Of a stretch of 64,000 bases of DNA, positions 1 to 56,279 are shown in pieces. The notes beneath the pieces were generated by a model, which searched no databases, had not been told where the DNA came from, and was given only the letters and a program-made list of their open reading frames with translations. Source of the stretch: the human T2T-CHM13v2.0 reference genome, Homo sapiens; the NCBI GenBank assembly GCA_009914755.4, contig CP068257.2, forward strand, positions 37,088,001 to 37,152,000. The letters run 5' to 3'. A program made the translations under genes and the position numbers. Position 1 is the first letter of the stretch. Each line of letters begins with the position of its first letter.

Positions 1-2054
1 CAATTACAGGGAACTTTAACTGGGGCTCTGATTGAATGTGTGTTTCACCCATGCATGGTAGAAATCCCAGCGTTGAAACAAGAGCTCAGGGCTTAGAATT
101 CGCTGACCTGGGTCCAGCTCTCACTCTGCCTGACACCAGTGAGTGAACTTCAGGAAGATAGTGTTCCTTTCTTTTGCTAAATTTTCCTTTCTTTCCCTTT
201 CCTAGAAGTAAAAATGGGCATAATAACAACCTCACATGACTCCCAGGACCATTGTGAAGTTCAAGTGAATGTATGTGTGCATTCAATCATTCCCAGGCTT
301 TTATATGATGACTCTGTCCAGTAAATTCTGTCTCACAGTAACATATTTCAAAATAAATAAAAAGAAGGGCTTATAAGCAAAGACCTATAAAGGTGCCCTA
401 CTGTTACTTGCAGAAAAGCAGTAGATTCCAAGAATAGAGTCTTGAGCCTTCAGTGTTACTACTCTTTTAAATAACATTTGTTTTTTTTCTAATTTACAAA
501 TAAATACACATTTTTCCTAAAGGCAAAATTGAAAAAGAAAAAGAAAAATATCACTCAAAACAAGAGGTAACAATTCTTAACGTTTTTATTTTGTTTTCTA
601 CCAGTCTACATCTATGAAGATACATGCTTTTCTTTCTTATAAAATTTGGACCACAACACATGTGAATCTTTGTTCCCGTTATTAACTATTTCCTTTGGAT
701 GGTTCCCAAGAGTGAAATTACTCCATCAAAGAGTAGTAACTCTTTGAAGGCTCTTCATAAATTCGTCTGCATCTTTTGAGAAAATCTGTACCAATTTAAA
801 ATGCCATAAGTAGGGAATGAGAATACTTATCTTGCAGCAGCCTCCCAAGCACTAAATGTCATTATCTATTCAAAATCTTTGCCAAATTTCATTTATTTGA
901 TTATTATTGATGCGGAATTATTTTTTAAATATCTGATTAGCCATTTGTGTTTCTTATTTTGCACATTGTATTTGTCAGGAAAACTTTGAGCCGCAAGTAA
1001 GAGAAAATATGACTTCCAATGATAGAAACAAAGAATTTTTTAAGAAGTCTGAAGAATTTGGCTTTAAGGGTTGGTCCAGCAGCTCAGCAATGCCAATGAC
1101 AGTTTTTCTGCCAATCTTATAGCCTCTCACACATGTGGGCAAAATGGCTGCTGAAGACCCAGCATCTCATCCTTATTCAAGCCAGAAAGAAGGGAGGAAG
1201 AACAAGGCAGCCATATCTGCCCCCACACACTCCTCACAAAGATTTCTGCTTATGTTCCATTGACCAGAATTATGCAACATGTCTACCCTAGCCACAAAAG
1301 AGCCTGGAAAAGATTATTAGTTTTTCCAGCCTCTATAATGGAGATGGGCAAGAGTGAAGGGGGCTTGAAAATGGATGTTGGGTTACTCAGCAGTCATGGT
1401 CTAGTCATTTGCACATCTTCACCATAAGTTTTTTTCGTGGTGATATTTAAAATACCAGCCAGCCTCCCTGGCAGTCCCTGGAGAAGCATTAGCTATTATT
1501 GAATAAATAAAACTACTGGTGATTATCTTAGTCCATACTACATAGGTTGACCACATGAGAGGCAGCTGGATCACTTGCCTAAGTCTGCATTTTCAAAGCA
1601 GCAGTCTCCATGTGACCCATATACTGATGGGAAACCAGTTTCTTCCTCAGTTCATGACACCTAAATGCATTTGGCATGTTTCTTCACGAAAGCCATCATG
1701 AAAAATTTCTTATATTTCTGCATGTCATACAGATGGGGGAAAATCACATCTTTATTTTGGTTGCACTCTGTCCTCTGGGGCCCTGAAGAGTGAATACCAT
1801 ACATACCACACAGCCTATATATTCTATTGGACCCTCCCAAGCTCACTCTCCAAATTTTATCTGAATTCATCTACAATTATACCTGATGGTACAACTGTTG
1901 AAGAAGTGGAAACTCAATTTCAAACTATATAAATGGATAGAAATACTTTCATATTTTCCTGATTATATATTACTTAATTTTATTAAGGCTGTTCTTTGAA
2001 ATACAGGCATCTTTTTATTTTAAAAAAATTAAGGTAAAATTTATCATTATTTTC

Positions 2055-2295
2055 ATGGTGAGGCAGCACAGCGTTTGGGGAAGAACTACTATCTGGGTTC
2101 CAATCCCGGATTTGCTGTTTCCCATGGGGAACCACGGCAGTTATATAACCTCAGTTATGTCTTAGTATCCTCATTTGTTAAATATGGTAATATCAATAAT
2201 ACCAAAAACATATAATTTATGAGAAGATTAAATAAGATAACTTGCATAAAGCCCTAGCTCAGTGCCTGGTACCTGATCAATAGTTAATGATGAAT
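2055..2295 (+). mobile_element. MIR SINE (ancient tRNA-derived SINE), plus orientation
   Basis: Matches the MIR core and 3' region: '...aatcccggatttgctgtttcc...cctcagtt...tcctcatttgttaaatatgg...gccctagctcagtgcctggtacctgatcaatag'. Confidence 0.55.
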
Positions 2296-2774
2296 TTTTG
2301 TTAGCATTATTAGATTATTGATATGTGTGTGATATATATGTAACATGAGGATGATATACATTAATATTTTTATGTAGCTCATTATTCTTCTGGATTTATT
2401 TCAATGTATATGGGAGAATCTAGTTAAATCTTTTTTCCAAGTACAGTTAATTTTTCTATCACTACTTGTTGAGTAATTCATTCCTTCCCCATCGGTTTGT
2501 GGCATTTTCTTTCTTGTGTATAGTTCTGTTTTTATATACACTAGAATCTATTTGAACACATCTTACCTGATACTATAGAATGTTACAACAGTAACCTGTC
2601 ATTTTAGTTGCTGGTAGAATCATTCATAGTATGCCGAAGACTGCTTAAAAATTTGTAGAACCAAATCAATTTGGATTGTTACTTTAAATTATAACAAAAA
2701 ACAATCCAGAGAAATTCAGAAGTCAAATACAATAAGTGAATTATTTGTTTTTAATCTAGGAGGAAAAGCATTGA

Positions 2775-2985
2775 GAGCTTAGTATGTACTAGGCACAGAA
2801 CTAATAGTCCACCCATTACCCATGTGCAGTTATGCCCACTGTACAGTTGAAGAAGTGGAAACTCAGTTTCAAGTATATAATTGACTGAGTCAAAGAGACT
2901 GAGGTAAGAGAAGCTCATCACACAGTCACAGCAGAGCCGGGACTCAGTCCTAGCAGCCCAGACTCTGAAGGGCTCTGCTAGGTGA
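2775..2985 (-). mobile_element. MIR SINE, minus orientation
   Basis: The reverse complement matches MIR: 'gagagcttagtatgtactaggcacag...cccactgtacagttgaagaagtggaaactcag...gtcacagcagagccgggactcagtcc'. Confidence 0.55.
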
Positions 2986-3084
2986 TCCCTTCACTGATCT
3001 CTGCGTATACGAAGAGTCTCTAAGCATAAACAACATGGAAAAGAATAACAGAGAAATATGTCAGCAGATTGGACTAAATAACAA

Positions 3085-3194
3085 ATATATATATATATAT
3101 ATATATGCCATTTTGCCCACATGCGTGAGAGGCTATGAGATTGGCAGAAAAACTGTCATTGGTATTGTTGAAATATATATATATATGTGTGTGT
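3085..3194. repeat. (TA)n/(TG)n microsatellite interrupted by a 62-bp non-repeat insertion (3108-3170)
   Basis: The sequence reads 'atatatatatatatatatatatat' + 'gccattttgcccacatgcgtgagaggctatgagattggcagaaaaactgtcattggtattgttg' + 'aaatatatatatatatgtgtgtgt'. Confidence 0.9.
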
Positions 3195-3400: not shown

Positions 3401-3750
<350 letters not shown>

Positions 3751-5060: not shown

Positions 5061-5356
5061 GACAGGTTTTTTGGGGTTTGTTTGTTTGTTTCATTTTGTT
5101 TGATAAACATAGAAATTGACACTTCTAATCTTAAATCTTGAAACTTACAATTGTTTTATCTGAGTTCCTTCCTCAGGGAATGACCTTCATGCCTCTCAAA
5201 AAAAAGTATCACAGATCTGAAACTCACCAGATCACCATATCCTGGCTATGAGATGCTGGACCCCTCATTTATCATGATTGTTTCCTTGCCCCTCCCTAGT
5301 TCCTATTTTCTTACATATTGTTACATTGCTTCCCTGCTATAGAAACCTCTAGTTTT

Positions 5357-5692
<336 letters not shown>

Positions 5693-6370: not shown

Positions 6371-6715
<345 letters not shown>

Positions 6716-20282: not shown

Positions 20283-20318
20283 TTGAGTTCTCCAGAACTC
20301 TGAATAGTTCGATAGATG

Positions 20319-20394
<76 letters not shown>

Positions 20395-20503
20395 GCTAGC
20401 TAGCTATGGGGGATGGAGAAGGATTGATTTTAAGGAATTGGATCATATAATTGTAGAAGTTGGCAAGTCCAAAATCTGAGTTCTCCAGAACTCTGAAGAG
20501 TTC

Positions 20504-20546
<43 letters not shown>

Positions 20547-20680
20547 CAGATAGATAGATAGATGATAGAGAGAGAGAGAGATGATAGATATGGAGGGATG
20601 GAGAAGGATTGATTTTAAGGAATTTTAAGGAATTGGATCATATAATTGTGGAAGCTGGCAAGTCCAAAATCTGTAGGGAA
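20283..20680. repeat. Two tandem ~195-bp cassettes, each holding a (GATA)n(GACA)n tetranucleotide STR and an MLT1-derived flank
   Basis: Unit 1 reads 'gagttctccagaactctgaatagttc(gata)n(gaca)n...ggatggagaaggattgattttaaggaattggatcatataattgtagaagttggcaagtccaaaatctg'. Unit 2 reads 'agttctccagaactctgaagagttca(gata)n...ggagggatggagaaggattgattttaaggaatt...ggatcatataattgtggaagctggcaagtccaaaatctg'. Confidence 0.9.
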
Positions 20681-21554: not shown

Positions 21555-22299
21555 AAAGCAGAGCATGTATTACTGCCTCTAGACTTTAGGAATGCCATAT
21601 GACTTGCTTTGGTCAACAGAGCAATGTGGAATTGTTGGTGTATCAGGCCTGAGCCTAGCCCTTTTGAGGTCTCATGTGTTTCCACTTGCTTTCTTCATGG
21701 GAAAACATGTCCAGGTGAGCTTGCTGGTCACATAAGGAAAGCAATAGTCACAAGGCAGTGGAGATCAGCCCAGTGTAGATCAGCTGACCCGCCAATTCAT
21801 AGATGCATGAGCAAGTCCAGGCAAGATTGGAAAAGCCAAGCCAAATAAGTTGAGCCTAGATTAGATCATCTATCCCCAGACACATGATGCAAAATAAATA
21901 AGCTTTTTGTTGTATAAAGTTGAGTTTTTTCTGGGTTAGTCCATTTGTGTTGCTATAAAGGAAACCTTAGGCTGGGTAATTTATAAAGAAAAGAGGCTTA
22001 TTTGGCTCACAGTTCTGCAGGCTGTGCAAGAAGCATGGCGCTAGCATCTGCTTCTGGTGAGGGCTTCAGGGAGCTTTCCAATCATAGTGAAAGGGAGAGA
22101 AGAGCCAGCATATCACATGGCAAGAGAGGGAGCAAGAGAAAGGAGAGAAGGTGCCAGGCTCTTTTAAACAACCAAATCTCATGTGCACTAATAGAGTAAG
22201 AATTCCCTTATTGCCGCAAGGAAGGGACCAAGGCTTTTATGGGAAATATGCACCCAAGACAAAAAAGTCACTAAGCAGGCCCCATCTCCAACACTGAGG

Positions 22300-22644
22300 G
22301 TCAAATATCTCCCTCCCTCCTCCTTCTTTCCTTCCTTCCTTCCTTCCTTCCCTGACACAAACACCACTCACCAAGCCCCACCTCCAACATTGGGAGTCAA
22401 ATTTCTTTTTTCTTTCTTTTCTTTCTTTCTTTCCTTTCTTCCTTCCCTCCTTCCTTCCTTCTTTCCTGCCTTCTTTCTTTCTTTTTCTTTCCTTCCTTCC
22501 TTGCTTCTTTCCTTCCTTCTTTCTTTTTCTTTTCTTTCCTTCCTTCCTTGCTTCTTTCCTTCCTTCTTTCTTTCTTTTTCTTTTCTTTCCTTCCTTCCTT
22601 CCCTCTTTCCTTCCTTCTCTCTCTCTCTCTCTTTCTTTCTTTCG
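22300..22644. repeat. Long (TTCC)n/(TTTC)n polypyrimidine microsatellite, with a duplicated leader
   Basis: About 340 bp is almost exclusively T and C on the plus strand. The motif 'ccaacactgagggtcaaatatct' recurs as 'ccaacattgggagtcaaatttct'. Confidence 0.95.
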
Positions 22645-22777
22645 ACAGGTTCTGGCTTGGTCACCCAGGCTGGAGTGGAGTGTGGTGGCATGACCTCTGC
22701 CTCCTAGGCTCAAGCCATCCTCCCACCTCAGCCTCCCGAGTAGCTGGGACTACAGACTCATGCCACCATACCCGGCC
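22645..22777 (-). mobile_element. Alu fragment (right monomer only)
   Basis: The fragment reads 'gacaggttctggcttggtcacccaggctggagtggagtgtggtgg...gcctcccgagtagctgggactacagactcatgccaccatacccggcc'. Confidence 0.85.
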
Positions 22778-23155
22778 ACGAATCAAATTTCAACGTGAGA
22801 TTTGGAGGGGACAAATATTCAAACTATATCACTTTCTGATTGCTTGTGATACAACATTCTTGTGAGCATAGGACATCTATACAAGAAGTAAGCTGGAAAA
22901 AGCTTTAGGAGAATTAATAGGGGAGGGAAAATAATATTTAATGATGGCTTATAACATTGTACTTTTTTTAATTCTTAGTAAAAAATAAGATGAGATAGAG
23001 TATTGACAGATGCCTCGTATTTAATGTAATGAAAGCTAATTTCCTGTTCCCACTCCCACCCTTCCACCATCACCGCTTCCCACTGTCTTCACCAACTTGA
23101 AAAATGGCAACTTCATTCTACCAGTTGCTCACGTCGAAACCTTAAAGTCATCCTT

Positions 23156-23270
23156 GATTTCTCTCTTTCTCTCACTTCTCACATCCAATTCATCAGCAAA
23201 TTCACTTGGTGCTTCCTTTAAAATAGATCCAGAATCAAAAAATGTGTCTCATCCCTACTACCTGCTTCAA
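23156..23270 (+). repeat. Copy 1 of a ~114-bp low-copy direct repeat (partner at 24709-24822)
   Basis: Copy 1 is 'atttctctctttctctcacttctcacatccaattcatcagcaaattcacttggtgcttcctttaaaatagatccagaatcaaaaaatgtgtctcatccctactacctgcttcaag'. Copy 2 is about 95% identical. Confidence 0.9.
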
Positions 23271-24517: not shown

Positions 24518-24708
24518 TCATTATTCTTCTTAACACTTTCACCCTGTTCATTTGTTGTTGGTGGTCTTCCCCACTAAAACGTCCCTGTGTGAGAGCAGAG
24601 AATTTGCTTGCATTGATCACTGCTGTACATTTCATTCCCAGCACCTAGGACAGTGCCTGGCACATAGTAGGTGCTCAATAAACATTTGTTGAATTAATAT
24701 ATTTCTTA

Positions 24709-24822
24709 ATTTCTCTCTTTCTCTCACTTCTCACATCCCATTCATCAGCAAATTCACTTGGTGCTTCCTTGAAAATATATGCAGAATCAAAAAATGTGTC
24801 TCATCCCTACTACCTGCTTCAG
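24709..24822 (+). repeat. Copy 2 of the ~114-bp direct repeat
   Basis: The copy reads 'atttctctctttctctcacttctcacatcccattcatcagcaaattcacttggtgcttccttgaaaatatatgcagaatcaaaaaatgtgtctcatccctactacctgcttcag'. Confidence 0.9.
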
Positions 24823-36655: not shown

Positions 36656-38751
36656 CATTAAAACTCACATGATGCCACAAGTTTGAGCACAACATGTCTA
36701 AGAACAAGTTCTTAGGAGATGCGCCTGGGCCCCAAGAAGCACAATGATGATGTGCTCCTGGGCCTGGAATCTCAAGGCTCAAGGAGCTCCATGGTCCTGA
36801 CCCAGGTGATGAGGAGGAAAGCTCTCCACTCCATCAGGCCTCTAATTCCACACCTGGAAAAAAGAAAGACGAATTGGACCAGAGTCTCCCCAAGTCTCCT
36901 CTCGTTCTTAACTTGTAGTTCTAGAATAATGGAATGTCGGGAGCCCACGAAAGCTGCCTTCCTCCAACAAATGTGCACTGGGGTAGACCCCTCCTTCTTT
37001 CCACCCTGCTGGGTTGTACTCAGAAGCATCTCTGCTCTTGGCTCTCCTTAACCATGCTATGGCCAACCACACCCTCCCTGAAGGATGGTGGTATGAGTCG
37101 CTCACCATCAACAGCTCCCACCTTCCTCTTGGGTTCTTCAGCAGCTTCTTAAAGTCCCTGGCAAGAGGAGAGAGAACCTAATACTTATCCATCAATGTAA
37201 TGGGTATATAGGAATGAGATGTAATCACCTTTATACATTCATAATTTAATCCTCCCAGCAGCCCAATGAAAGCCAATCAACCATTCATGGATCCAACAAA
37301 TATTTCAGAGCCTATTTCTTGTGTGGTTGGCAGTGGGGCCTGCGTCTCCAATGGGGACACAGTAGAGCTGAACTGCCATCCAGGAGGTGACTCTCAATCA
37401 GGAAACAGGAAACAAGAGAGCACACAAATAAAAAGATAGCAGGAAGGGAGGTGCCCTTAAATTAAGTGAAGGGGCACCTTAAAGGGAAGGGGCATTAAGT
37501 AAGAGATCTGAGGGGTTGAGGAAACCAACATTGCAGGTGAGGGTACAGGCCAAGGACTCAGGGAGCCTGGTGATCTCAGGCTCAAAACCTTAGTGTGGCT
37601 GGAACTAAGGGGGAAGAAAAACATTACAACATCCCCAAGGTAGGCAGGGCCTCAGATGCTGGGCAGCAAATGTGGGTTTTATCCTGAGTACAAAGAGCAG
37701 TCATCTGCCAAGGAGCCCAGTGCTGCTTCCACTGCAAATATCTAGGTTCCAAGAGCCCCTCAACCCTTCTCCTCCCTGGACAAAGATCCACCCTCAAGCT
37801 ACTTCTCATATCATTCGCTTGCATGTCGCTGACTCTCAAGCATGCTCCTGGTCATATCTGGGACTTGTTCTTCAAGTCTTATCTTTTATTGTAGCACAAA
37901 ACCTTTTGGCCTCCGTTATGCAAATTCGAGATACCAGTCATTTGAGGAAGAAGTAGAGAAGGGAGGGAAAACAGGGTCATCTTCCCCAGCTGCCCTAACT
38001 CGTTTCTGCAAAAGACTAATGTGTTTCCAAACTCTCCAAGCACAAGAGCTCCCAAGCAATTACTTTAGGGAAGCCAATGATAAATTTACATTGAATTGCT
38101 GGGTTTATGAAACGATAGTGTTTCCACAAGTGTAGACTGCAGAAGTTTTGAGAGGTATCAAAACTTATTACATAAAGGTTTGGCAATATGGAGTTTATAG
38201 AAATTAAGTAGGTCTCTTGACTATAGGACTTCTCAGACCTTAATCGGCAACTGCAGGGCAGGAGTCTCTGGATCATCATGGCAGCTATGTTGGTCCCATG
38301 TCCCTGGACTCTGCTGGTCTGCTTTCTCGTCTCTATCTAGAGTACTATATAAGTACTAGGAAGGCAGAGATTGTATCTTAAATATTGCATGTCTTGAATG
38401 GTGTCTCAAGCATAGTGAGATCTCAATTATTAACAAATACTTATTAATAAATAAATGAAGGAGTCACCAGCAGGTGATTATTTTCCAAACTTCTCATATT
38501 TTTTTCATGGAACACATCTTTGGACTCTTGCTAAAGAACAGACCCCTTAGGAATGCTTCTAAGGAATGCTGCTTCAGGAAAAAATGACAACAAAACTATG
38601 ATGTGTACAGGTTCTTTACCTAATATGGAAGAACCTAGAATTCATTATTATATTTGGTACTTTTTTCTTGTAGGGAACTTGTGTCCTCTAAAATTTATTT
38701 AAACTAAAAATGTCATCGTCATCATCAGTCAAGATAGCCATCTTGCTTTGT

Positions 38752-38958
38752 TTCTCTGTCTCTCTCTCTCTCATTCTCTCTCTCTGTCTCTCTCTCTCTC
38801 TCTCATTCTCTCTCTATCTCTCTCATTCTCTCTCTCTCTGTCTCTCTCTCTCACTCTCTCTCTGTCTCTCTCATTCTCTCTCTCTGTCTCTCTTTCTCAT
38901 TCTCTCTCTCTCATTCTCTCTCTCTCTCATTCTCTCTCTCATTCTCTCTCTCTCTCAT

Positions 38959-38991
<33 letters not shown>

Positions 38992-39145
38992 GTCTCTCTC
39001 TGTCTCTCTCTCTGTCTCTCTCTGTCTCTGTCTCTCTCTCTGTCTCTCTGTCTCTCTCTGTCTCTGTCTCTCTCTCTGTCTGTCTCTGTCTCTCTCTCTG
39101 TCTGTCTCTGTCTCTCTCTCTCATTCTCTCATTCTCTGTCTCTTC
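38752..39145. repeat. ~400-bp imperfect (TC)n tract with periodic 'cattc' and 'tgtc' interruptions
   Basis: The motif 'tctctgtctctctctctctcattctctctctctgtctc...' runs throughout. It is the source of the LS-rich ORFs 38710-39189 and 38748-39182. Confidence 0.95.
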
Positions 39146-39311
39146 CACACACACTCACCTACACAATGATGCATGGCCATAATTATTAAAAATTATTTTC
39201 AGATTAGAAAATTCAGAGAAGAAAACAACTATTGGGAATCCCACCAGTTAAAATGTTGGCATTTTTCTTTCTCCTGGTCTTCCTTCTTTGCTTTTTGTTC
39301 TGAAATCATGC

Positions 39312-45314: not shown

Positions 45315-46280
45315 TACTTATGTTTTTAAATAAATTGATAAAATCATTTCAAATTATTTTATGCCCAAATACATATGCATGTGATGTGAAATGTGGTTGC
45401 CTTTTCAAATGTGTGACTTGACATAGGCAGGGGTCTCAGCTTTAAGAAAAAGGGGAAACCAAGTCCTCAACATGGTCTTGTCTTTCCCTGGGCCCATAGC
45501 TCCTATGTAGATGGTCCCAGACCAATTACAACCGGATCTGCATGTCCAGCTCCTGCCGGGGACCACCCCAGCTGCACCTCTCCAGACAGCAGGGACAGGC
45601 TCGGGCACCTTGTCCAAGGCAGAAAGACATCAGAGCTAAGGCTGCCTGGATTCAAACTGTCATTCTCCTGCCGAGTAAAAAGATGACCTTGGGGGCTTAC
45701 TTAACCTTGCTGATCTCAGACATGCCTGCTTCAAGGGGCTGTTTGTGAAGATTGCCTACCTGAAAGGAAGAAGGTGGGGCAAAATTAATCCAAGCAGATA
45801 ATTTATTTGGCCAAGCTTGAGGATTGCAACCCGAGAGCATAGATTCAAGTTGTCCTGAATCTACAATCCAAAGAGCGCAGGTAGTCGTGGATTTTTAAAA
45901 ACAAGAGGCAGGGAGTTGGCTGCTACAAAGTTGTTTGCCAGGAATTCTCATTGGTGTACACGAACAACATTGAAGAGCAATTGGTTATACATGGTTAAGC
46001 TATAGGTTGTGGGTTACAGCATCCCCTGTGGCATTATTAGGTTAATCTACAGCTATCTGTGGCAATAGCAATAGTTTAAAGAGATGAACACACAGCTCAA
46101 AGTGGGAAAGTGGAGAATGGTTGCTATCTCATTTTAATGCCTCTCTGGGCCTGATAATTTGAAAGGGCTCACGTTCCTCACATGAAAGTTCTTTTCTTTC
46201 CTCTGGATTGAGTTCACACATGGCACATGGAGTATGACCTGTACATTCATTCACTCAAAACAAAAAACAAAACAAAAAAA

Positions 46281-46599
46281 TAGCTCCAGGCAGTGACTCA
46301 TGCGTGTCATCCCGTACTTTGGGAGGCCAAGGCAGGAGGATCTCTTCAGGCCAGGAGTCGGAGACCAGCCTGGACAATATAGTGAGATCTCATCTCTATT
46401 TAAAAAAAGTTTTTTTTTAATTAGCCAGGCGTGGTAGTGTGTGCCTGTGGTCCCAGCTACCTGGGATGCTGAGGTGGGAGGATCAATTGAGTCCAAGAAT
46501 TTGAGGCTGCAGTGAGCTGAGATTGTACCACTGCACTCCAGCCTGGATGACCAAGCAAGATCCTGTCACAAAAACAAACAAACAAACAAACAAACAAAA
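46281..46599 (+). mobile_element. Alu SINE (diverged) with (caaa)n tail
   Basis: The body reads 'tagctccaggcagtgactcatgcgtgtcatcccgtactttgggaggccaaggcaggaggatctcttcaggccaggagtcggagaccagcc'. Confidence 0.9.
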
Positions 46600-46805
46600 C
46601 TATGCAGCAGCAACTATGTGCTGGGCCCTGTTCTGGACCCTGGGATACAGCTGCAAACAAAGGTCCTGCTCTTATGGAGCTCACATCTTGTGAGGGAGAA
46701 GCAGGAGATGGAGATGTAACGTGCTCAGGGTGATGAGAGCTGAGGAAAGAAGTGAGCTGGAGAAACGGATTGGGACACGGGAAGGCATCACTGACGCGGG
46801 GTATA

Positions 46806-47487
<682 letters not shown>

Positions 47488-47619
47488 GAAGCAAGCAAGG
47501 CCGTTAGCAAGGAGCGGGCTGGGGAGAGCACTCCAGGCAGAGGGAACAGCCAGGGCCAGGGCCTTGAGACAGACGTGAGCCAGGATATCTGAGGAACAGC
47601 AGAAAAGCCAGTGTGGCCG

Positions 47620-47830
47620 CAGCTAAATGAGGAACAATGTGTGAGTTCCCTGGGGCGGCCAAAACAAACACCACGGACGGGGGCCTTCAACCACAGACAC
47701 CGATTTCCTCACAGCTCTGGAGGCGAAAAGTCCAAGAAAACTGCACGGAGTATCTATGAGGCCCTGATGGAGACCTGACCTGGTCCACACCCATGGCCTG
47801 GCAAGCTAGATGGGGTGAATTTTCACCTGC
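47620..47830 (-). mobile_element. MLT1-like LTR fragment
   Basis: The fragment reads 'ggccaaaacaaacaccacggacgggggccttcaaccacagacaccgatttcctcacagctctggaggcgaaaagtccaagaaaactgcacgg'. Confidence 0.4.
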
Positions 47831-47994
47831 CACAGTCGCAAGTCAAAGCCACCGGCTTCTCTCTTCTCCCTCCCATTGCTCCTGACAGCCAGGGTTAATA
47901 TTTTGCCTCATGTAAACAGGGAGGCATCCACCCGAGAATCTCCCCTCAGCCCACATAAGCTCTGCAGAGAGGGCTGTGTTGCTCCAGTTCCCAC

Positions 47995-48283
47995 CTGGAC
48001 ATGAGCACTTTGAAGGGCAGCTTCCCTCCCGGGGTCTGGCTGAGCTCAGGGTAGGCGTCAGTCTGCATGGATTGGATGGAGGAAGGCTGTGCGTGGCAGG
48101 AGATGACACTGCCCTTGGGCTGTGTGGTTTCTCTCTGTTCCGAGCCCTGTTCCTCCACCTTAGCGGAATAGCGCCTCTCCATCCAGTTCTCATCTTTGAG
48201 AACGTTTCTTGGGATGAAAGCCACGACGTTGGATATGAACAACCTGGTTGCCAAGTTGTTTGCATTTTTGCCTCCTCTCCTTT
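47995..48283 (-). CDS. Candidate internal or terminal coding exon (hypothetical; product unknown)
   Basis: On the minus strand a strong acceptor, '...cagcttttcccttcag|AAAGGAGAGG', precedes 289 nt. Downstream is a donor 'CATGTCCAG|gtgggaac'. One frame is open across the whole segment ('...KNANNLATRLFISNVVAFIPRNVLKDENWMERRYSAKVEEQGSEQRETTQPKGSVISCHAQPSSIQSMQTDAYPELSQTPGGKLPFKVLMSR') and runs on to a TGA at 47946-47948 if the exon is unspliced. It is non-repetitive GC-rich sequence. I could not match it to a known protein from memory. Confidence 0.2.
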
Positions 48284-49994
48284 CTGAAGGGAAAAGCTGT
48301 CCTTGTGTGGGGCCACTTCAGACCCCAGTGAGCAAAAGGAGTGATGTTTAGGGGAAGGCAGGGAGAGCAGAAACTTGCATATTCCACACCTTCTGCGGCT
48401 GGGCACTGGGATGGGCCTTTCTCATGGCCGGTGGGATGGGAGAGGAGAGAGGTCTCCATCCAGCACCACTTACATCACACACATAAGCGACCTGGGGTAT
48501 TAGTGGCTAGGAGTGCAGGTTCCAGATATCTCTCAGGTATAGTCTCCGCAGGATCCTGTTCCTCCCTTACCACTCATGAAGCCACTTTTCCCCCCAGGAG
48601 CCTTGGTGGTCTCCTATCTAAAGTGGGGATGGCACACAAATCCATGTCCTTGTGACGGTCCCATGAGAGAAGCAGACAGACCCTGTGCACACAAGGGCCT
48701 GCAGGGAGAAGCGCTCTACACGTGGCGACACCCTTTCCTCCCAGGATGGTCTCCTCTGCATTCCTGCTGTCATCCCAGCGTCCCACCTGATTCCCCAGGA
48801 CACAGCTGACTAGAAATCAGCCCTGGACTAGAACCCACCGCCCGCCAGGGGTGGGTACGCTTTCTCGGAGGCCCCCATGGGGAGGCAAAATGGAAAACCA
48901 CACCCAATACTCAACCTACAGTGGGCCACTAATTCCCAAGGCAATTCTGCTGTTTGTATCTGTGGGAGAAATGCATTTCCTTTGTTTTCGAAAAAGCAGA
49001 TGGCCAGGTGTCATTGGCAGAGGGGCTGCAGTGAGGGCAGTGAGGGAGAGCAGAGGAAATGAATGGACAGTGCAGAGGACAGGCCAGGTGGCCCACAACC
49101 AGGCAGACAGCTCACGTTGCCTTTTCTGGAAATAGGGACTGCATGACCAATCTGTGCCTGTGCCTCTCTGGCACACAATGGACAATTTCGGAAAACTTCA
49201 AAAGAAAAAGCCAAGTTGATTTTGCTAAAAATGTGAAGTTTCTCTCTCTCTCTCTCTCTATCTCTTTAATGCAATGCATAGTTTATCATTTTCTTGTCTT
49301 TAGGATTAATTAAAGACAGGGCTAAATTTGTTTAAACAAGCTCTAAAATATTAAAAAAGAAGAAGAAGGCAAAGTACATAGTGTTTCCAAGTCCAGGGAA
49401 CATTCTGTTCCCTGGGCTTCAGTTTATAACTGAATGTGCTTTACGTTTAGAAGACAAGCTATAGCTTGTAAAATGAATGTGGAAATAATCTAAAGTATGA
49501 GGCCTCCATTATTTATTATGTAATTGGAGAAAATTCTGGCTGGGAGAAATCTTTAGCTGAAAGCCAAGATGATCCCTACTCAATCGTTCTTAAACAAAAT
49601 TAACATGTATCCATTTCTTTGATAATATTTCACTGGCAGGCAGTTCCTCTTCTAGGCTGCTATGAGCAAATTGCCAAGTTGGGTGTCACCCGTATAATCA
49701 TTATCATGGGAAACCGTCAGAGTTCCTTGGGCAAGGGAATCAAAGATTTCAAGTGTTGACATTTTGTTAAGTAGGTTTTTTATAAAGTCTTACATTTAGA
49801 ACTTTTCAGAACATGTCATCTCCAAAATCAGTAATCATTAAACGACGTCCAAGACCATGTTTTTGAGATCCTTCTATACTCTAAAAGCATTTTGATAATA
49901 TTATTCCATAAACTGCCCCTTTTTTATTAAATGCATATCACAATCTTTTCAAACTATGAATATGGTCCTGGTTCATTCAAGAGAAAGAAGCTCT

Positions 49995-53102: not shown

Positions 53103-54095
<993 letters not shown>

Positions 54096-54905
54096 TTTCA
54101 AAATGACATATTTCTATATCTTACAATTTTCCTGAGTTTTGGTGTTAATTAAATGTACAATTAAATCTTTTGGTTTTTAAAAATATAGATAACATCTTCC
54201 ACTGTTTAATTCTATACTGTTTTTTAAAAAGAAAACCTGAAGAGTGCAAACCTGTAGAGTAAGAAAAGGGGAGGAATGAAATTTATCTTACTCCTCCTGC
54301 CAGATGCAGTTTGGTACATCTTAACACTAAATGCTCATTTTACTGAATTCTCACTTTAAGAATGTTCCATTATATTTTAAACTCTTTATAGGCATATTGA
54401 TTTTGTGCTGAAAGAGATTAAACAGCCCTCAAGAGTTTCAAGCAAATTCTCTTAGTCAGTAAATGCATTTCCTCTTTCATTCATGTCCCAATGCCCAGTC
54501 AACATTTTTTGTGTGCCTGTATCACTTAACCAACAAAGATTTTGGAAACAATCTTTGGATAATACAATATTTGATTTCTCATAATGTGACCTGAAGATCC
54601 ACATGATTTTGTTTTTTTGTCAGCCCATGCCACCCCATGGTTTGGAGGAACCAAACCCCCAGCCTTTTGAGGGGTGAGACTCCTGGAATTTTCGTCCCGT
54701 GCCTTCGTGGGGATTTCTCCTGTATTTAGTATTTGTTCACCCGACACAGACTTGCAGAGCCTAATGCATTCCAGACACTGCGCTGAGTGCCAGGAATAAA
54801 GAAACATCTGTACCTGGTACAGTCTGGCTGGGGCAAGAAACCACCAACATGATAAGCAAATGAATGTATAATGTAACAGAACATGGGTTGTGCCCTGAAG
54901 AAAAA

Positions 54906-55038
54906 TAAAGACTGACCAGGAAAGGGGATGGGAGTGGGGAGAAAAACCATATTAAACTGAATTATACCTTCCACCTTACCTTGTATTATGATCAAAAGAA
55001 ATCCCTCTGCTGTCCTTTCCTCCTGACACTCTTCCCAC
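54906..55038 (+). repeat. Copy 2, in unique context, of the 133-bp duplicated segment, followed by (CA)n
   Basis: Same sequence as copy 1 with 'aaaaaccatatt' in place of 'aaaaaacatatt'. It runs into 'cacacacacatgcacacacacacgcac'. Confidence 0.95.
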
Positions 55039-56279
55039 ACACACACATGCACACACACACGCACATCTGTAAACCCCTGACAACAGTGGTGACGTCTATC
55101 TCACCTTTGTGCACCCCCAAAGCTGAACACAGCTATGCATGACTGACACAATTTTGTTAAACCAAAGAAAATCTTTTCATGATGTCTCCATTAATTTCAT
55201 GTGGCCAACCAGCCATTCCTGGAAGTTTCTTGAACTCTCTGGAGATCCCTTCTGCCTTTAGGCATCTTCTGTCTACTCAGCGAGTAGTTCCTGGGGCTTT
55301 CCTAATGGCATTTCTGCTTATCCGATATCTGCTGGATGTCGTTCAGAAAAATGACATTGGAGGCTGAGGCCTCAAACTTTAGCTCCATATTCTTGGTCAG
55401 GTTTCAGATTTTCACTTAAACACAGCCCTGTCTGCGATGCCAACAGACTTTAGCTCAATTTATTATCAGAGGGCGATCTGGCACTCCCATACAGCTCCGC
55501 AAATGCCTCTGACTATCTAATAACTCATCATTAAACACCACATTCCCTGAGAGGCTGTGGAGACCAGGCAGGGAGGGCCTCTCCCTTCTGAAAAAAGGAG
55601 CCCCTTCCAGGGCTCACAACAAAATGTCAAGTTTGGCAAAAGATAAAAATAGAAGTCTTTGTTTCACACTTGCAAAAAGGCTCAAACTTTCACGTGTGCT
55701 TCTGTTTATATTAAATAAAAAGCCCATTTTTCTTGGGATAAAAGCATCTTAAGAAGAGTTGTAGGGAGAAGAGACTAGGTCCTTTCTTAACCGGAATTCA
55801 ACTGATTAGACCCTGGCCAGACTCTCCAGTCAGACCCAGAAAGAGAAAACAGTGCCAATCCGAATGATTCAGCTCAATCCGTTCAAAACAACAAATCATG
55901 AAATGGCATCATGGACAGGCATGTTACGATAAGACTCTGCTAACGTGGCTTTTGCTGCAAAGTGGGAAATGGTTCTGGGAACTTACAGCTTTAATAAGAT
56001 CAAACAATGCATCAAATGGAGGTCTGAGTTGGAGATCTGGGCTTCGACCTGCAGAAATAAGAATTGAGGCCTGTTGGGTGCTTCGCTGCTGGCAGTGCTC
56101 TCTCACGTGCCCTTTCCAGCTGGCTCTCACCTGATTCTCAGACACCTCTGAGAGCTAGGTGGTGTTCTCGTGTACATGTTAGAGATGAGGAAACCCAATC
56201 TCTGACAGCTGTCTATCCACCTGTTTGGAAGGGGCTGAACTGTGTTCCCCCCAAGCTCATCTGTTGAAGCTTTAACCCC

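What the first reader, a model, noticed from the sequence alone, without database searches (positions are those of the whole stretch)
1087..3194. 62-bp inverted duplicate inserted inside a (TA)n microsatellite
Positions 3108-3170 are the reverse complement (about 93% identity) of 1087-1148, which lies 2 kb upstream. The copy sits exactly in the middle of a (TA)n tract, with TA repeats on both sides. The source lies in a block (about 1090-1700) that looks like an old DNA-transposon or LTR relic. Possible explanations are a hairpin or cruciform-prone (TA)n tract acting as a break site repaired by templated synthesis from a nearby sequence, or the two copies being the inverted termini of a non-autonomous DNA transposon.
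Basis: seen in the sequence. Interest (0 to 1): 0.5.

Follow-up and report, generated by a model that had tools for sequence, protein, structure and literature searches.

The report
DNA-repair patch inside an AT microsatellite
A 65-base stretch of human DNA was copied in reverse from 2 kb away and pasted into an (AT)n repeat, most likely when a chromosome break there was repaired; this is a real but ordinary example of a known kind of repair scar.

Summary
Window 3107-3171 is the reverse complement of 1084-1148: 65 nt, 61/65 identical, and all four differences are transitions. There is no other copy in the 64-kb window. The copy at 3107 lies between AA(AT)11 and A(AT)7(GT)4. Two independent human assemblies show the same sequences, so this is not an assembly artefact.

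The window is human, Alu-rich DNA. [quoted passage not shown] 2009. In this reading a break in or at the AT tract was patched with a 65-nt copy of sequence 2 kb upstream. The features that fit are:
- a donor less than 5 kb away;
- a length of at least 50 bp;
- no poly(A);
- nearly blunt junctions with one filler base, or alternatively a 16-nt target duplication.

Divergence suggests an age of about 30 My (CI 8-72).

The transposon-terminus idea fails. There is no target-site duplication outside the arms, the same AT tract lies on both sides of one arm only, and much older MIRs lie between the arms.

Genome-wide copy number, the repeat family of the donor, and primate orthologues could not be tested here.

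The same window holds three more short local patch duplicates. One of them interrupts an Alu, with filler and 5-nt microhomology. This is a known kind of event and of low interest.

The parts
1084..1148 (+). Donor (template) copy of the 65-nt segment, in ordinary non-repetitive-looking context on both sides
   Evidence: the flanks are not AT repeats; present in independent human contig L001
3107..3171 (-). Acceptor copy: inverted 65-nt patch, 61/65 identical to the donor
   Evidence: present with both flanking tracts in independent contig L002
3083..3106 (.). Left part of the interrupted microsatellite: AA(AT)11
3172..3194 (.). Right part of the microsatellite: one untemplated A (3172), then (AT)7 (3173-3186) and (GT)4 (3187-3194). 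Read together with the templated A at 3171, 'AAATATAT...' repeats the left boundary 'AAATATAT...' (possible 16-nt target duplication)
   Evidence: (family D7)
1149..3106 (.). Spacer between donor and acceptor (1958 nt). It contains two sequences read by eye as MIR SINEs (about 2050-2290 on the minus strand, about 2760-2990 on the plus strand), which would be much older than the duplication
   Evidence: sequence read; the MIR assignment is from memory of the consensus and was not tested against a library

Best explanation
[quoted passage not shown] In a primate ancestor, a break occurred in or at the edge of an (AT)n(GT)n microsatellite at about window 3106. A 3' end from the break was extended on a template 2 kb upstream (1084-1148). 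This could have happened either by the resected left-hand tail folding back on itself, which automatically gives an inverted copy of a same-side donor, or by the right-hand end invading the donor duplex. About 65 nt were copied. The new strand was then released and joined to the other end with almost no homology, leaving one filler A or alternatively a duplicated AA(AT)n target. The donor stayed intact. Afterwards both copies drifted neutrally (4 transitions) and the two tract halves changed length by slippage. What is shown: the two copies, their orientation and identity, the interrupted tract, the absence of poly(A), and the absence of a TSD outside the arms. What is inferred: the break itself, the AT tract as its cause, which end primed, and the polymerase or joining pathway.
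For: (1) 65 nt at 93.8 % identity, with only these two copies in 64 kb. (2) Removing 3107-3172 rejoins (AT)11 and (AT)7(GT)4 into one ordinary compound microsatellite, so the right copy is the insert and the left copy is the donor. (3) The features match the RD class of Pace et al. 2009 (PMC2671141). In that study 824 of 1,136 duplicons had a donor less than 5 kb from the acceptor. Length was at least 50 bp (median 147). None of 39 inspected proximal cases had a poly(A/T) tail. Junctions showed microhomology, filler (1-68 nt), deletion or TSD (4-21 nt), and 8 of the 39 had no microhomology. One published case is an inverted copy at about 94 % identity. (4) Here there is no run of 5 or more A or T at either end of the insert, 0-1 nt of microhomology, and one unexplained A. 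(5) Inverted templated insertions made by fold-back priming at breaks have been shown experimentally (PMC11724301). Inverted nearby-templated insertions are a recognised MMBIR signature (PMC8421209). AT/TA repeats are known structure-forming break sites (abstracts). (6) The same window contains three more short local patches. One interrupts an Alu, with 13-nt stutter filler and 5-nt microhomology. The process has therefore acted here repeatedly. (7) The structure is present in independent human assemblies.
Against: No outgroup sequence could be obtained, so the empty site and the pre-existence of the AT tract are inferred, not seen. Present-day junctions show essentially no microhomology, which is the minority pattern among published RDs. 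It fits capture of a free copied fragment by end joining as well as it fits primed synthesis. The tract is short: at most 18 AT units if it was simply split, or 7-11 if the target was duplicated. Experimentally fragile AT repeats are longer, for example (AT)34. Genome-wide uniqueness of the 65-mer was not tested. The published fold-back and MMBIR examples use templates tens of bases away, not 2 kb.
Confidence: 0.72

Rival explanations
1. Replication-based template switch without a two-ended break (FoSTeS/MMBIR type). A fork stalls at a hairpin in the AT tract. The nascent strand jumps to the opposite-strand template 2 kb away, copies 65 nt, and jumps back upstream of where it left, so the AA(AT)n tract is replicated a second time.
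For: The inverted orientation and nearby template are the stated MMBIR signature (PMC8421209). 'AAATATAT...' is present on both sides of the insert, which a return upstream of the departure point would explain. Short-range template switching that creates inverted copies is documented in human and great-ape genomes (abstracts). The Alu patch at 53845-53992 shows stutter filler and 5-nt microhomology of this type.
Against: Both junctions of the 65-nt insert have only 0-1 nt of microhomology, whereas template switches normally use 2 or more. The evidence for a target duplication rests on a single extra A. A 2-kb jump is far beyond the ranges searched in the cited studies.
Confidence: 0.17
2. The two arms are the terminal inverted repeats of a non-autonomous DNA transposon spanning 1084-3171.
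For: The arms are 65 nt long, 94 % complementary, and lie about 2 kb apart.
Against: No direct repeat of 2-10 bp flanks the outer ends...CCAGCAGC versus AATATATA.... The AT tract lies on both sides of the right arm, which a transposon end would not produce. The interior holds two apparent MIRs that are far more diverged than the arms. No other copy of either arm was found in the window or in the DNA and protein collections searched.
Confidence: 0.02
3. Reverse-transcriptase (L1 ORF2p) mediated insertion of a short local transcript, of the class-1 TSIP or retro-copy type, with AAA(TA)n as the target-site duplication.
For: A possible 16-nt TSD begins with AAA. The target is A/T-rich. Class-1 TSIPs have TSDs (PMC5110952).
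Against: There is no poly(A) tail (only the AAA that is shared with the tract boundary) and no polyadenylation signal in the insert. A donor only 2 kb away is not expected for retroposition. In Pace et al., 0 of 39 proximal duplications had poly(A/T), against 17 of 29 distant ones.
Confidence: 0.04
4. Two independent fragments of one interspersed-repeat family that merely happen to lie 2 kb apart, that is, an ordinary repeat fragment.
For: The donor region (about 1084-1400) resembles, from memory only, the 3' part of a MaLR-type LTR. This was not tested.
Against: 94 % identity is far above what two independent old copies would share. The right copy is only 65 nt long, with abrupt ends inside a microsatellite. 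There are no further copies in 64 kb. No protein-level or DNA matches were found in the collections searched, although this is weak evidence because those collections contain little human DNA.
Confidence: 0.04

Closest known systems
[quoted passage not shown]
   Same: A conservative copy of a single donor less than 5 kb away on the same chromosome. Length is at least 50 bp. There is no poly(A). Filler or TSD-type junctions occur. The age is within the primate radiation. Published cases include an inverted copy at about 94 % identity.
   Different: Here the acceptor interrupts a microsatellite, not a transposable element, so their pipeline could not have found it. The insert is 65 nt, at the short end of their range (median 147). 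Microhomology is 0-1 nt, whereas most of their cases have 2-9 nt.
'Doublets', short paired local duplications (Thomas et al. 2004, as described in PMC2671141 section 14; details from memory)
   Same: A short (25-100 bp) pair separated by about 1-2 kb, arising by insertion of a copy without disturbing the surrounding sequence.
   Different: From memory, doublets were defined on exact matches and are mostly on the same strand. This pair is inverted and 6 % diverged.
Fold-back and MMBIR-type templated inverted insertions at breaks (PMC11724301; PMC8421209)
   Same: An inverted copy of nearby sequence inserted at a break. Synthesis is followed by release and end joining.
   Different: The described events use templates within about 100 bp (a 41-nt loop in yeast), are mostly under 35 bp long, and start at clear microhomology. 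Here the loop would be about 2 kb, the copy is 65 nt, and no microhomology is visible.
Templated sequence insertion polymorphisms, class 2 (PMC5110952)
   Same: A patch of genomic sequence at a presumed break, without poly(A).
   Different: TSIP donors are distant or on other chromosomes, and the authors argue for RNA intermediates. Here the donor is 2 kb away and the insert appears old, and I found no direct evidence that it is polymorphic (both contigs that carry the tract show (AT)11).
MITE / non-autonomous DNA transposon with terminal inverted repeats
   Same: Two inverted 65-nt arms about 2 kb apart.
   Different: There is no TSD, no other copies, an older interior, and a microsatellite on both sides of one arm.

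Membership tests
Repair-mediated duplication (Pace et al. 2009) | The acceptor is an insertion that interrupts a recognisable pre-existing sequence | tested here: met
   Removing 3107-3172 rejoins (AT)11 and (AT)7(GT)4. In the original definition the interrupted sequence is a TE; here it is a microsatellite. No outgroup empty site was seen.
Repair-mediated duplication (Pace et al. 2009) | Donor on the same chromosome within 5 kb but not within 50 bp | tested here: met
   1958 nt lie between the copies.
Repair-mediated duplication (Pace et al. 2009) | Insert of at least 50 bp | tested here: met
   65 nt.
Repair-mediated duplication (Pace et al. 2009) | The inserted sequence is found at only one other place in the genome | tested here: inconclusive
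   Only two copies in the 64-kb window. No human genome is available. Scans of bacterial and metagenome collections were empty but carry little information.
Repair-mediated duplication (Pace et al. 2009) | No poly(A/T) tract of 5 bp or more at an end of the insert | tested here: met
   The ends are ...ATAT|GCCATT and TTGTTGA|AATAT.
Repair-mediated duplication (Pace et al. 2009) | Junction hallmarks: microhomology 2-9 nt, filler 1-68 nt, deletion, or TSD 4-21 nt | tested here: inconclusive
   0-1 nt of microhomology. There is either one filler A (3172) or a 16-nt AA(AT)7 duplication. A deletion cannot be scored without an outgroup.
DNA transposon / MITE | Target-site duplication directly outside both terminal inverted repeats | tested here: not met
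   Flanks compared for k = 2-10, with none equal.
DNA transposon / MITE | Multiple dispersed copies sharing the termini | tested here: inconclusive
   None in the window. The genome-wide count is not testable here.
L1-mediated retro-insertion (class 1 TSIP / retro-copy) | Poly(A) tail downstream of a polyadenylation signal | tested here: not met
   No A-run of 5 or more and no AATAAA in the insert.
L1-mediated retro-insertion (class 1 TSIP / retro-copy) | Target-site duplication | tested here: inconclusive
   AAATATAT... is present on both sides, but this cannot be told apart from a split microsatellite.
MMBIR-type templated insertion (MMB-TI) | Inverted copy of a template within about 100 bp, flanked by microhomologies | tested here: not met
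   Inverted: yes. The template is 2 kb away and microhomology is 0-1 nt (definition).
   No Dfam or RepeatMasker library is available. A protein-level search of one open frame spanning the arm boundary gave one chance-like hit.

The most novel reading that the evidence does not exclude
The most novel reading not excluded has two parts. First, the AT microsatellite was itself a germline fragile site. Second, this 64-kb region is a local hot spot of break-induced patch duplication. It holds four short donor-acceptor pairs 1-2 kb apart, of different ages (about 1 % to 12 % divergence). The published genome-wide count of 824 RDs corresponds to roughly one per 3-4 Mb. If microsatellite-embedded acceptors are common, they would give a natural record of where primate germline breaks occurred.
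Probability: 0.2. Interest if true: 0.4.

Novelty: new member of a known kind. Interest (0 to 1): 0.2.

Why it matters
On its own this locus matters little. It is one more neutral scar of imperfect break repair in a human intergenic or intronic stretch. Its modest value is as a clean example in which the acceptor site is a structure-prone (AT)n tract. TE-based surveys of such duplications cannot see that class of site. A genome-wide count of patches embedded in microsatellites could test whether short AT repeats break in the germline as long ones do in cancer cells.

Tried and rejected
1. Other copies or repeat family: sensitive blastn of 1000-1750 against the window found only the known pair. 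The shared 25-mer had no match in metagenome contigs or genome contigs.

2. Protein searches: searches with ORFs covering the arm or its boundary found nothing usable. The one hit, P0002, is an unrelated tandem-repeat protein.

3. Primate orthologues through the protein and contig index:
- The neighbouring 69-aa ORF has only the identical human sequence on record.
- Several ORFs next to the site are not on record.
- A guessed edge-truncated ORF did retrieve an independent human contig with the insert.
- No non-human sequence was obtained.

4. Empty-site allele: a gapped pattern for flank-(AT)n-flank and a left-flank pattern found nothing.

5. Third protein search: not spent, because searches indicated that the collection holds no variants for this locus.

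6. Inversion with staggered breaks: rejected, because the left arm is not followed by an AT tract.

7. Hairpin or structure of the insert region: the DNA fold is no better than shuffles (z = -1.3).

8. Rfam: the only hit is an Alu/SRP match at 6567-6683.

9. Thomas et al. 2004: not held in the library.

Full report
**What the window is.** The sequence is human genomic DNA rich in Alu elements. Alu-type repeats lie at 3443-3747, 5356-5677 and 6377-6685, and there is an SRP/Alu Rfam match. A Logan contig from a public run is 100 % identical to window 1-3106.

**Checking the observation.** The repeat finder gives one outstanding inverted pair: 1084-1148 and 3107-3171, 65 nt, 94 % complementary, with 1958 nt between the arms.
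- MAFFT and blastn agree: 61/65 identical, no gaps, E about 1e-23.
- A 25-mer and a 29-mer from the arms occur only at these two places in 64 kb, with none in shuffles.
- The four differences are all transitions. One is a CpG retained in the right copy.
- The right copy is bordered on the left by AA(AT)11 (3083-3106; TRF reports (AT)11).
- On the right it is bordered by one A, then (AT)7, then (GT)4 (3172-3194).

The insert lies 11 units from one end of the tract and 7 from the other, not exactly in the middle.

An ENA human-gut-metagenome contig (host DNA) carries A(AT)11-insert-AA(AT)7(GT)4 identically (L002). The structure is therefore not an artefact of one assembly.

**Which copy is the original.** Deleting 3107-3172 restores an ordinary compound (AT)n(GT)n microsatellite. 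The left copy has unrelated, non-repetitive flanks. The right copy is therefore the insert (acceptor) and the left copy is the template (donor). This uses the same logic that Pace et al. applied to interrupted transposable elements.

**Rejected structural readings.**
- *Transposon termini.* The outer flanks share no direct repeat of 2-10 bp (CCAGCAGC versus AATATATA). One arm has the same microsatellite on both its sides. The interior holds two apparent MIR SINEs (about 2050-2290 minus strand, about 2760-2990 plus strand; read by eye, not tested against a library). These are far more decayed than the 94 % arms. No further copies exist in the window.
- *Inversion with staggered breaks.* This would place an AT tract next to the left arm, and none is there.
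- *Independent fragments of one repeat family.* Two independent old copies would not be 94 % alike, and would not end abruptly after 65 nt inside a microsatellite.
- *L1-type retro-insertion.* There is no A-run of 5 or more and no polyadenylation signal. A donor 2 kb away is not what retroposition gives. In the survey of Pace et al., none of 39 proximal duplications had poly(A/T) tails, while 17 of 29 distant ones did.

- That study found 824 human duplicons with the donor within 5 kb.
- The donor-acceptor distance distribution peaked at about 1.2 kb.
- Length was at least 50 bp (median 147).
- Junctions bore microhomology (2-9 nt), filler (1-68 nt), deletions or TSDs (4-21 nt).
- The events were spread through primate evolution.
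- One inverted example has about 94 % identity.
- The authors link these events to the 'doublets' of Thomas et al. 2004. That paper itself is not held in the library.

**Junctions at this locus.** The junctions are nearly blunt. At the left junction the tract ends ...ATAT and the donor context would read ...CAGCA, so there is no shared base. At the right junction the last templated base is A3171, followed by one unexplained A (3172) and then (AT)7. This can be read in two ways:
- as a 'filler only' junction, a minority class in the published table (8 of 39 proximal cases lacked microhomology);
- as a 16-nt target duplication, because 'AAATATAT...' begins both the left tract and the sequence after the insert (family D7).

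The evidence for a duplication rests on a single base and is weak.

**Mechanism, with its uncertain steps.** I infer a break in or next to the AT tract. An inverted copy of a donor on the left-hand side arises most simply in one of two ways:
- The minus strand is resected leftward for more than 2 kb. The plus-strand 3' tail then folds back and is extended on itself from 1148 to 1084.
- The right-hand 3' end invades the donor duplex, as in synthesis-dependent strand annealing.

In either case the new strand is then released and joined to the other end.

Fold-back priming that gives inverted insertions of 2 to about 150 bp, finished by end joining, has been shown in yeast (PMC11724301). Inverted, nearby-templated insertions are the accepted MMBIR signature in human genomes (PMC8421209). 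Both differ from this case in using templates tens of bases away and clear microhomology.

A replication template switch at a fork stalled by an AT hairpin is the main rival. It would explain a target duplication, but it also normally uses microhomology. Capture of a free copied fragment by end joining cannot be excluded.

That the AT tract caused the break is plausible. AT/TA repeats form hairpins and cruciforms and are cut by structure-specific nucleases (abstracts). However, the tract here is short (at most 18 units) compared with the experimentally fragile ones.

**Age.** K2P distance is 0.066. At the pairwise rate used by Pace et al. (2.2e-9 per year) this gives about 30 My, with a Poisson interval of 8-72 My. 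Four or more differences would be unlikely (P = 0.015) if the copy had arisen after the human-chimpanzee split. Error-prone repair synthesis could account for some of the differences, so this is an upper-leaning estimate.

**Context found along the way.** A self-comparison of the whole window shows three more short low-copy local pairs.
- *53856-53990 copies 54905-55039.* The match is 134-135 nt with 1 mismatch, direct, 1049 bp apart.
  - It interrupts a minus-strand Alu after ...GGGACCACAGG.
  - It is preceded by 13 nt of filler (GTAAAGTAAAAGG) that stutters the first bases of the patch.
  - It ends ...TCCCACA before the Alu resumes with GGCATGCACC.
  - CCACA is therefore microhomology, and CCACAGG is duplicated.
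  - This is a textbook RD and is young.
- *24694-24821 copies 23142-23269.* About 117-128 nt at about 93-96 % identity, direct, 1552 bp apart. The donor is continuous with what I read, from memory of the consensus, as an old L2-like repeat (not tested against a library), while the copy is not.
- *1894-1935 and 2843-2883.* They share 37 of 42 columns, direct, 949 bp apart.

These cases show that the process has acted here repeatedly. Four in 64 kb is many compared with the (conservative) published density, but I have no genome-wide background for my own detection settings.

**What could not be done.** No human or primate genome and no repeat library are available.
- Attempts to reach orthologues or other family members through the protein and contig indexes and through pattern scans returned only human sequence or nothing.
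- From memory the 1150-1400 stretch resembles the 3' part of a MaLR-type LTR. This is a lead, not a result.

**Verdict.** It is a new instance of a known kind of repair scar. Its small twist is that the acceptor is an AT microsatellite and the copy is inverted. Interest is low.

Noticed in passing
window 53845-53992 (acceptor) and 54905-55039 (donor): About 135-nt direct local duplicate with a single mismatch, 1049 bp apart. The acceptor interrupts a minus-strand Alu. It is preceded by 13-nt stutter filler (GTAAAGTAAAAGG) and ends in 5-nt microhomology (CCACA), which duplicates CCACAGG of the Alu. The donor is followed by a (CA)n tract. It looks like a young, possibly human-lineage, repair-mediated duplication.
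   Followed up: partly
window 23142-23269 and 24694-24821: About 117-128-nt direct local duplicate, 93-96 % identical, 1552 bp apart. The first copy is continuous with an old L2-like repeat on both sides. The second sits just after an L2/MIR-type 3' tail and ends abruptly, so it is probably another repair patch, about 20 My old.
   Followed up: partly
window 1894-1935 and 2843-2883: 42-column direct duplicate (37 identical, one 1-nt gap), 949 bp apart, lying between the two arms of the main finding. The downstream copy is inside an apparent MIR and includes a MIR-core-like motif. Polarity and origin are unresolved.
   Followed up: partly
L001 position 1 (= window 3106) and L002 position 1 (= window 3084): Two independent short-read contigs stop inside or at the edge of the (AT)11 tract. 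The Logan contig ends exactly at the tract/insert junction. This would fit an assembly-graph branch caused by AT-length (or insert presence/absence) polymorphism, or simply low coverage.
   Followed up: no
window 22237-22713 and 38710-39189: Long purine/pyrimidine-rich low-complexity tracts. The first is GAAG/GGAA-type, giving 'KEGRKE' ORFs. The second is CT-rich, giving 'LSLSLS' ORFs. Both produce spurious ORFs of 100-160 aa.
   Followed up: no
window 20284-20673: Tandem-like direct repeats with a period of about 195 bp (27-52-nt matches at 96 %).
   Followed up: no
window 46000-48500: The most GC-rich 2-kb stretch of the window (GC 0.515). It includes a 187-aa ORF on the minus strand (47843-48406). 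This could be an exon or CpG-rich region and was not examined.
   Followed up: no
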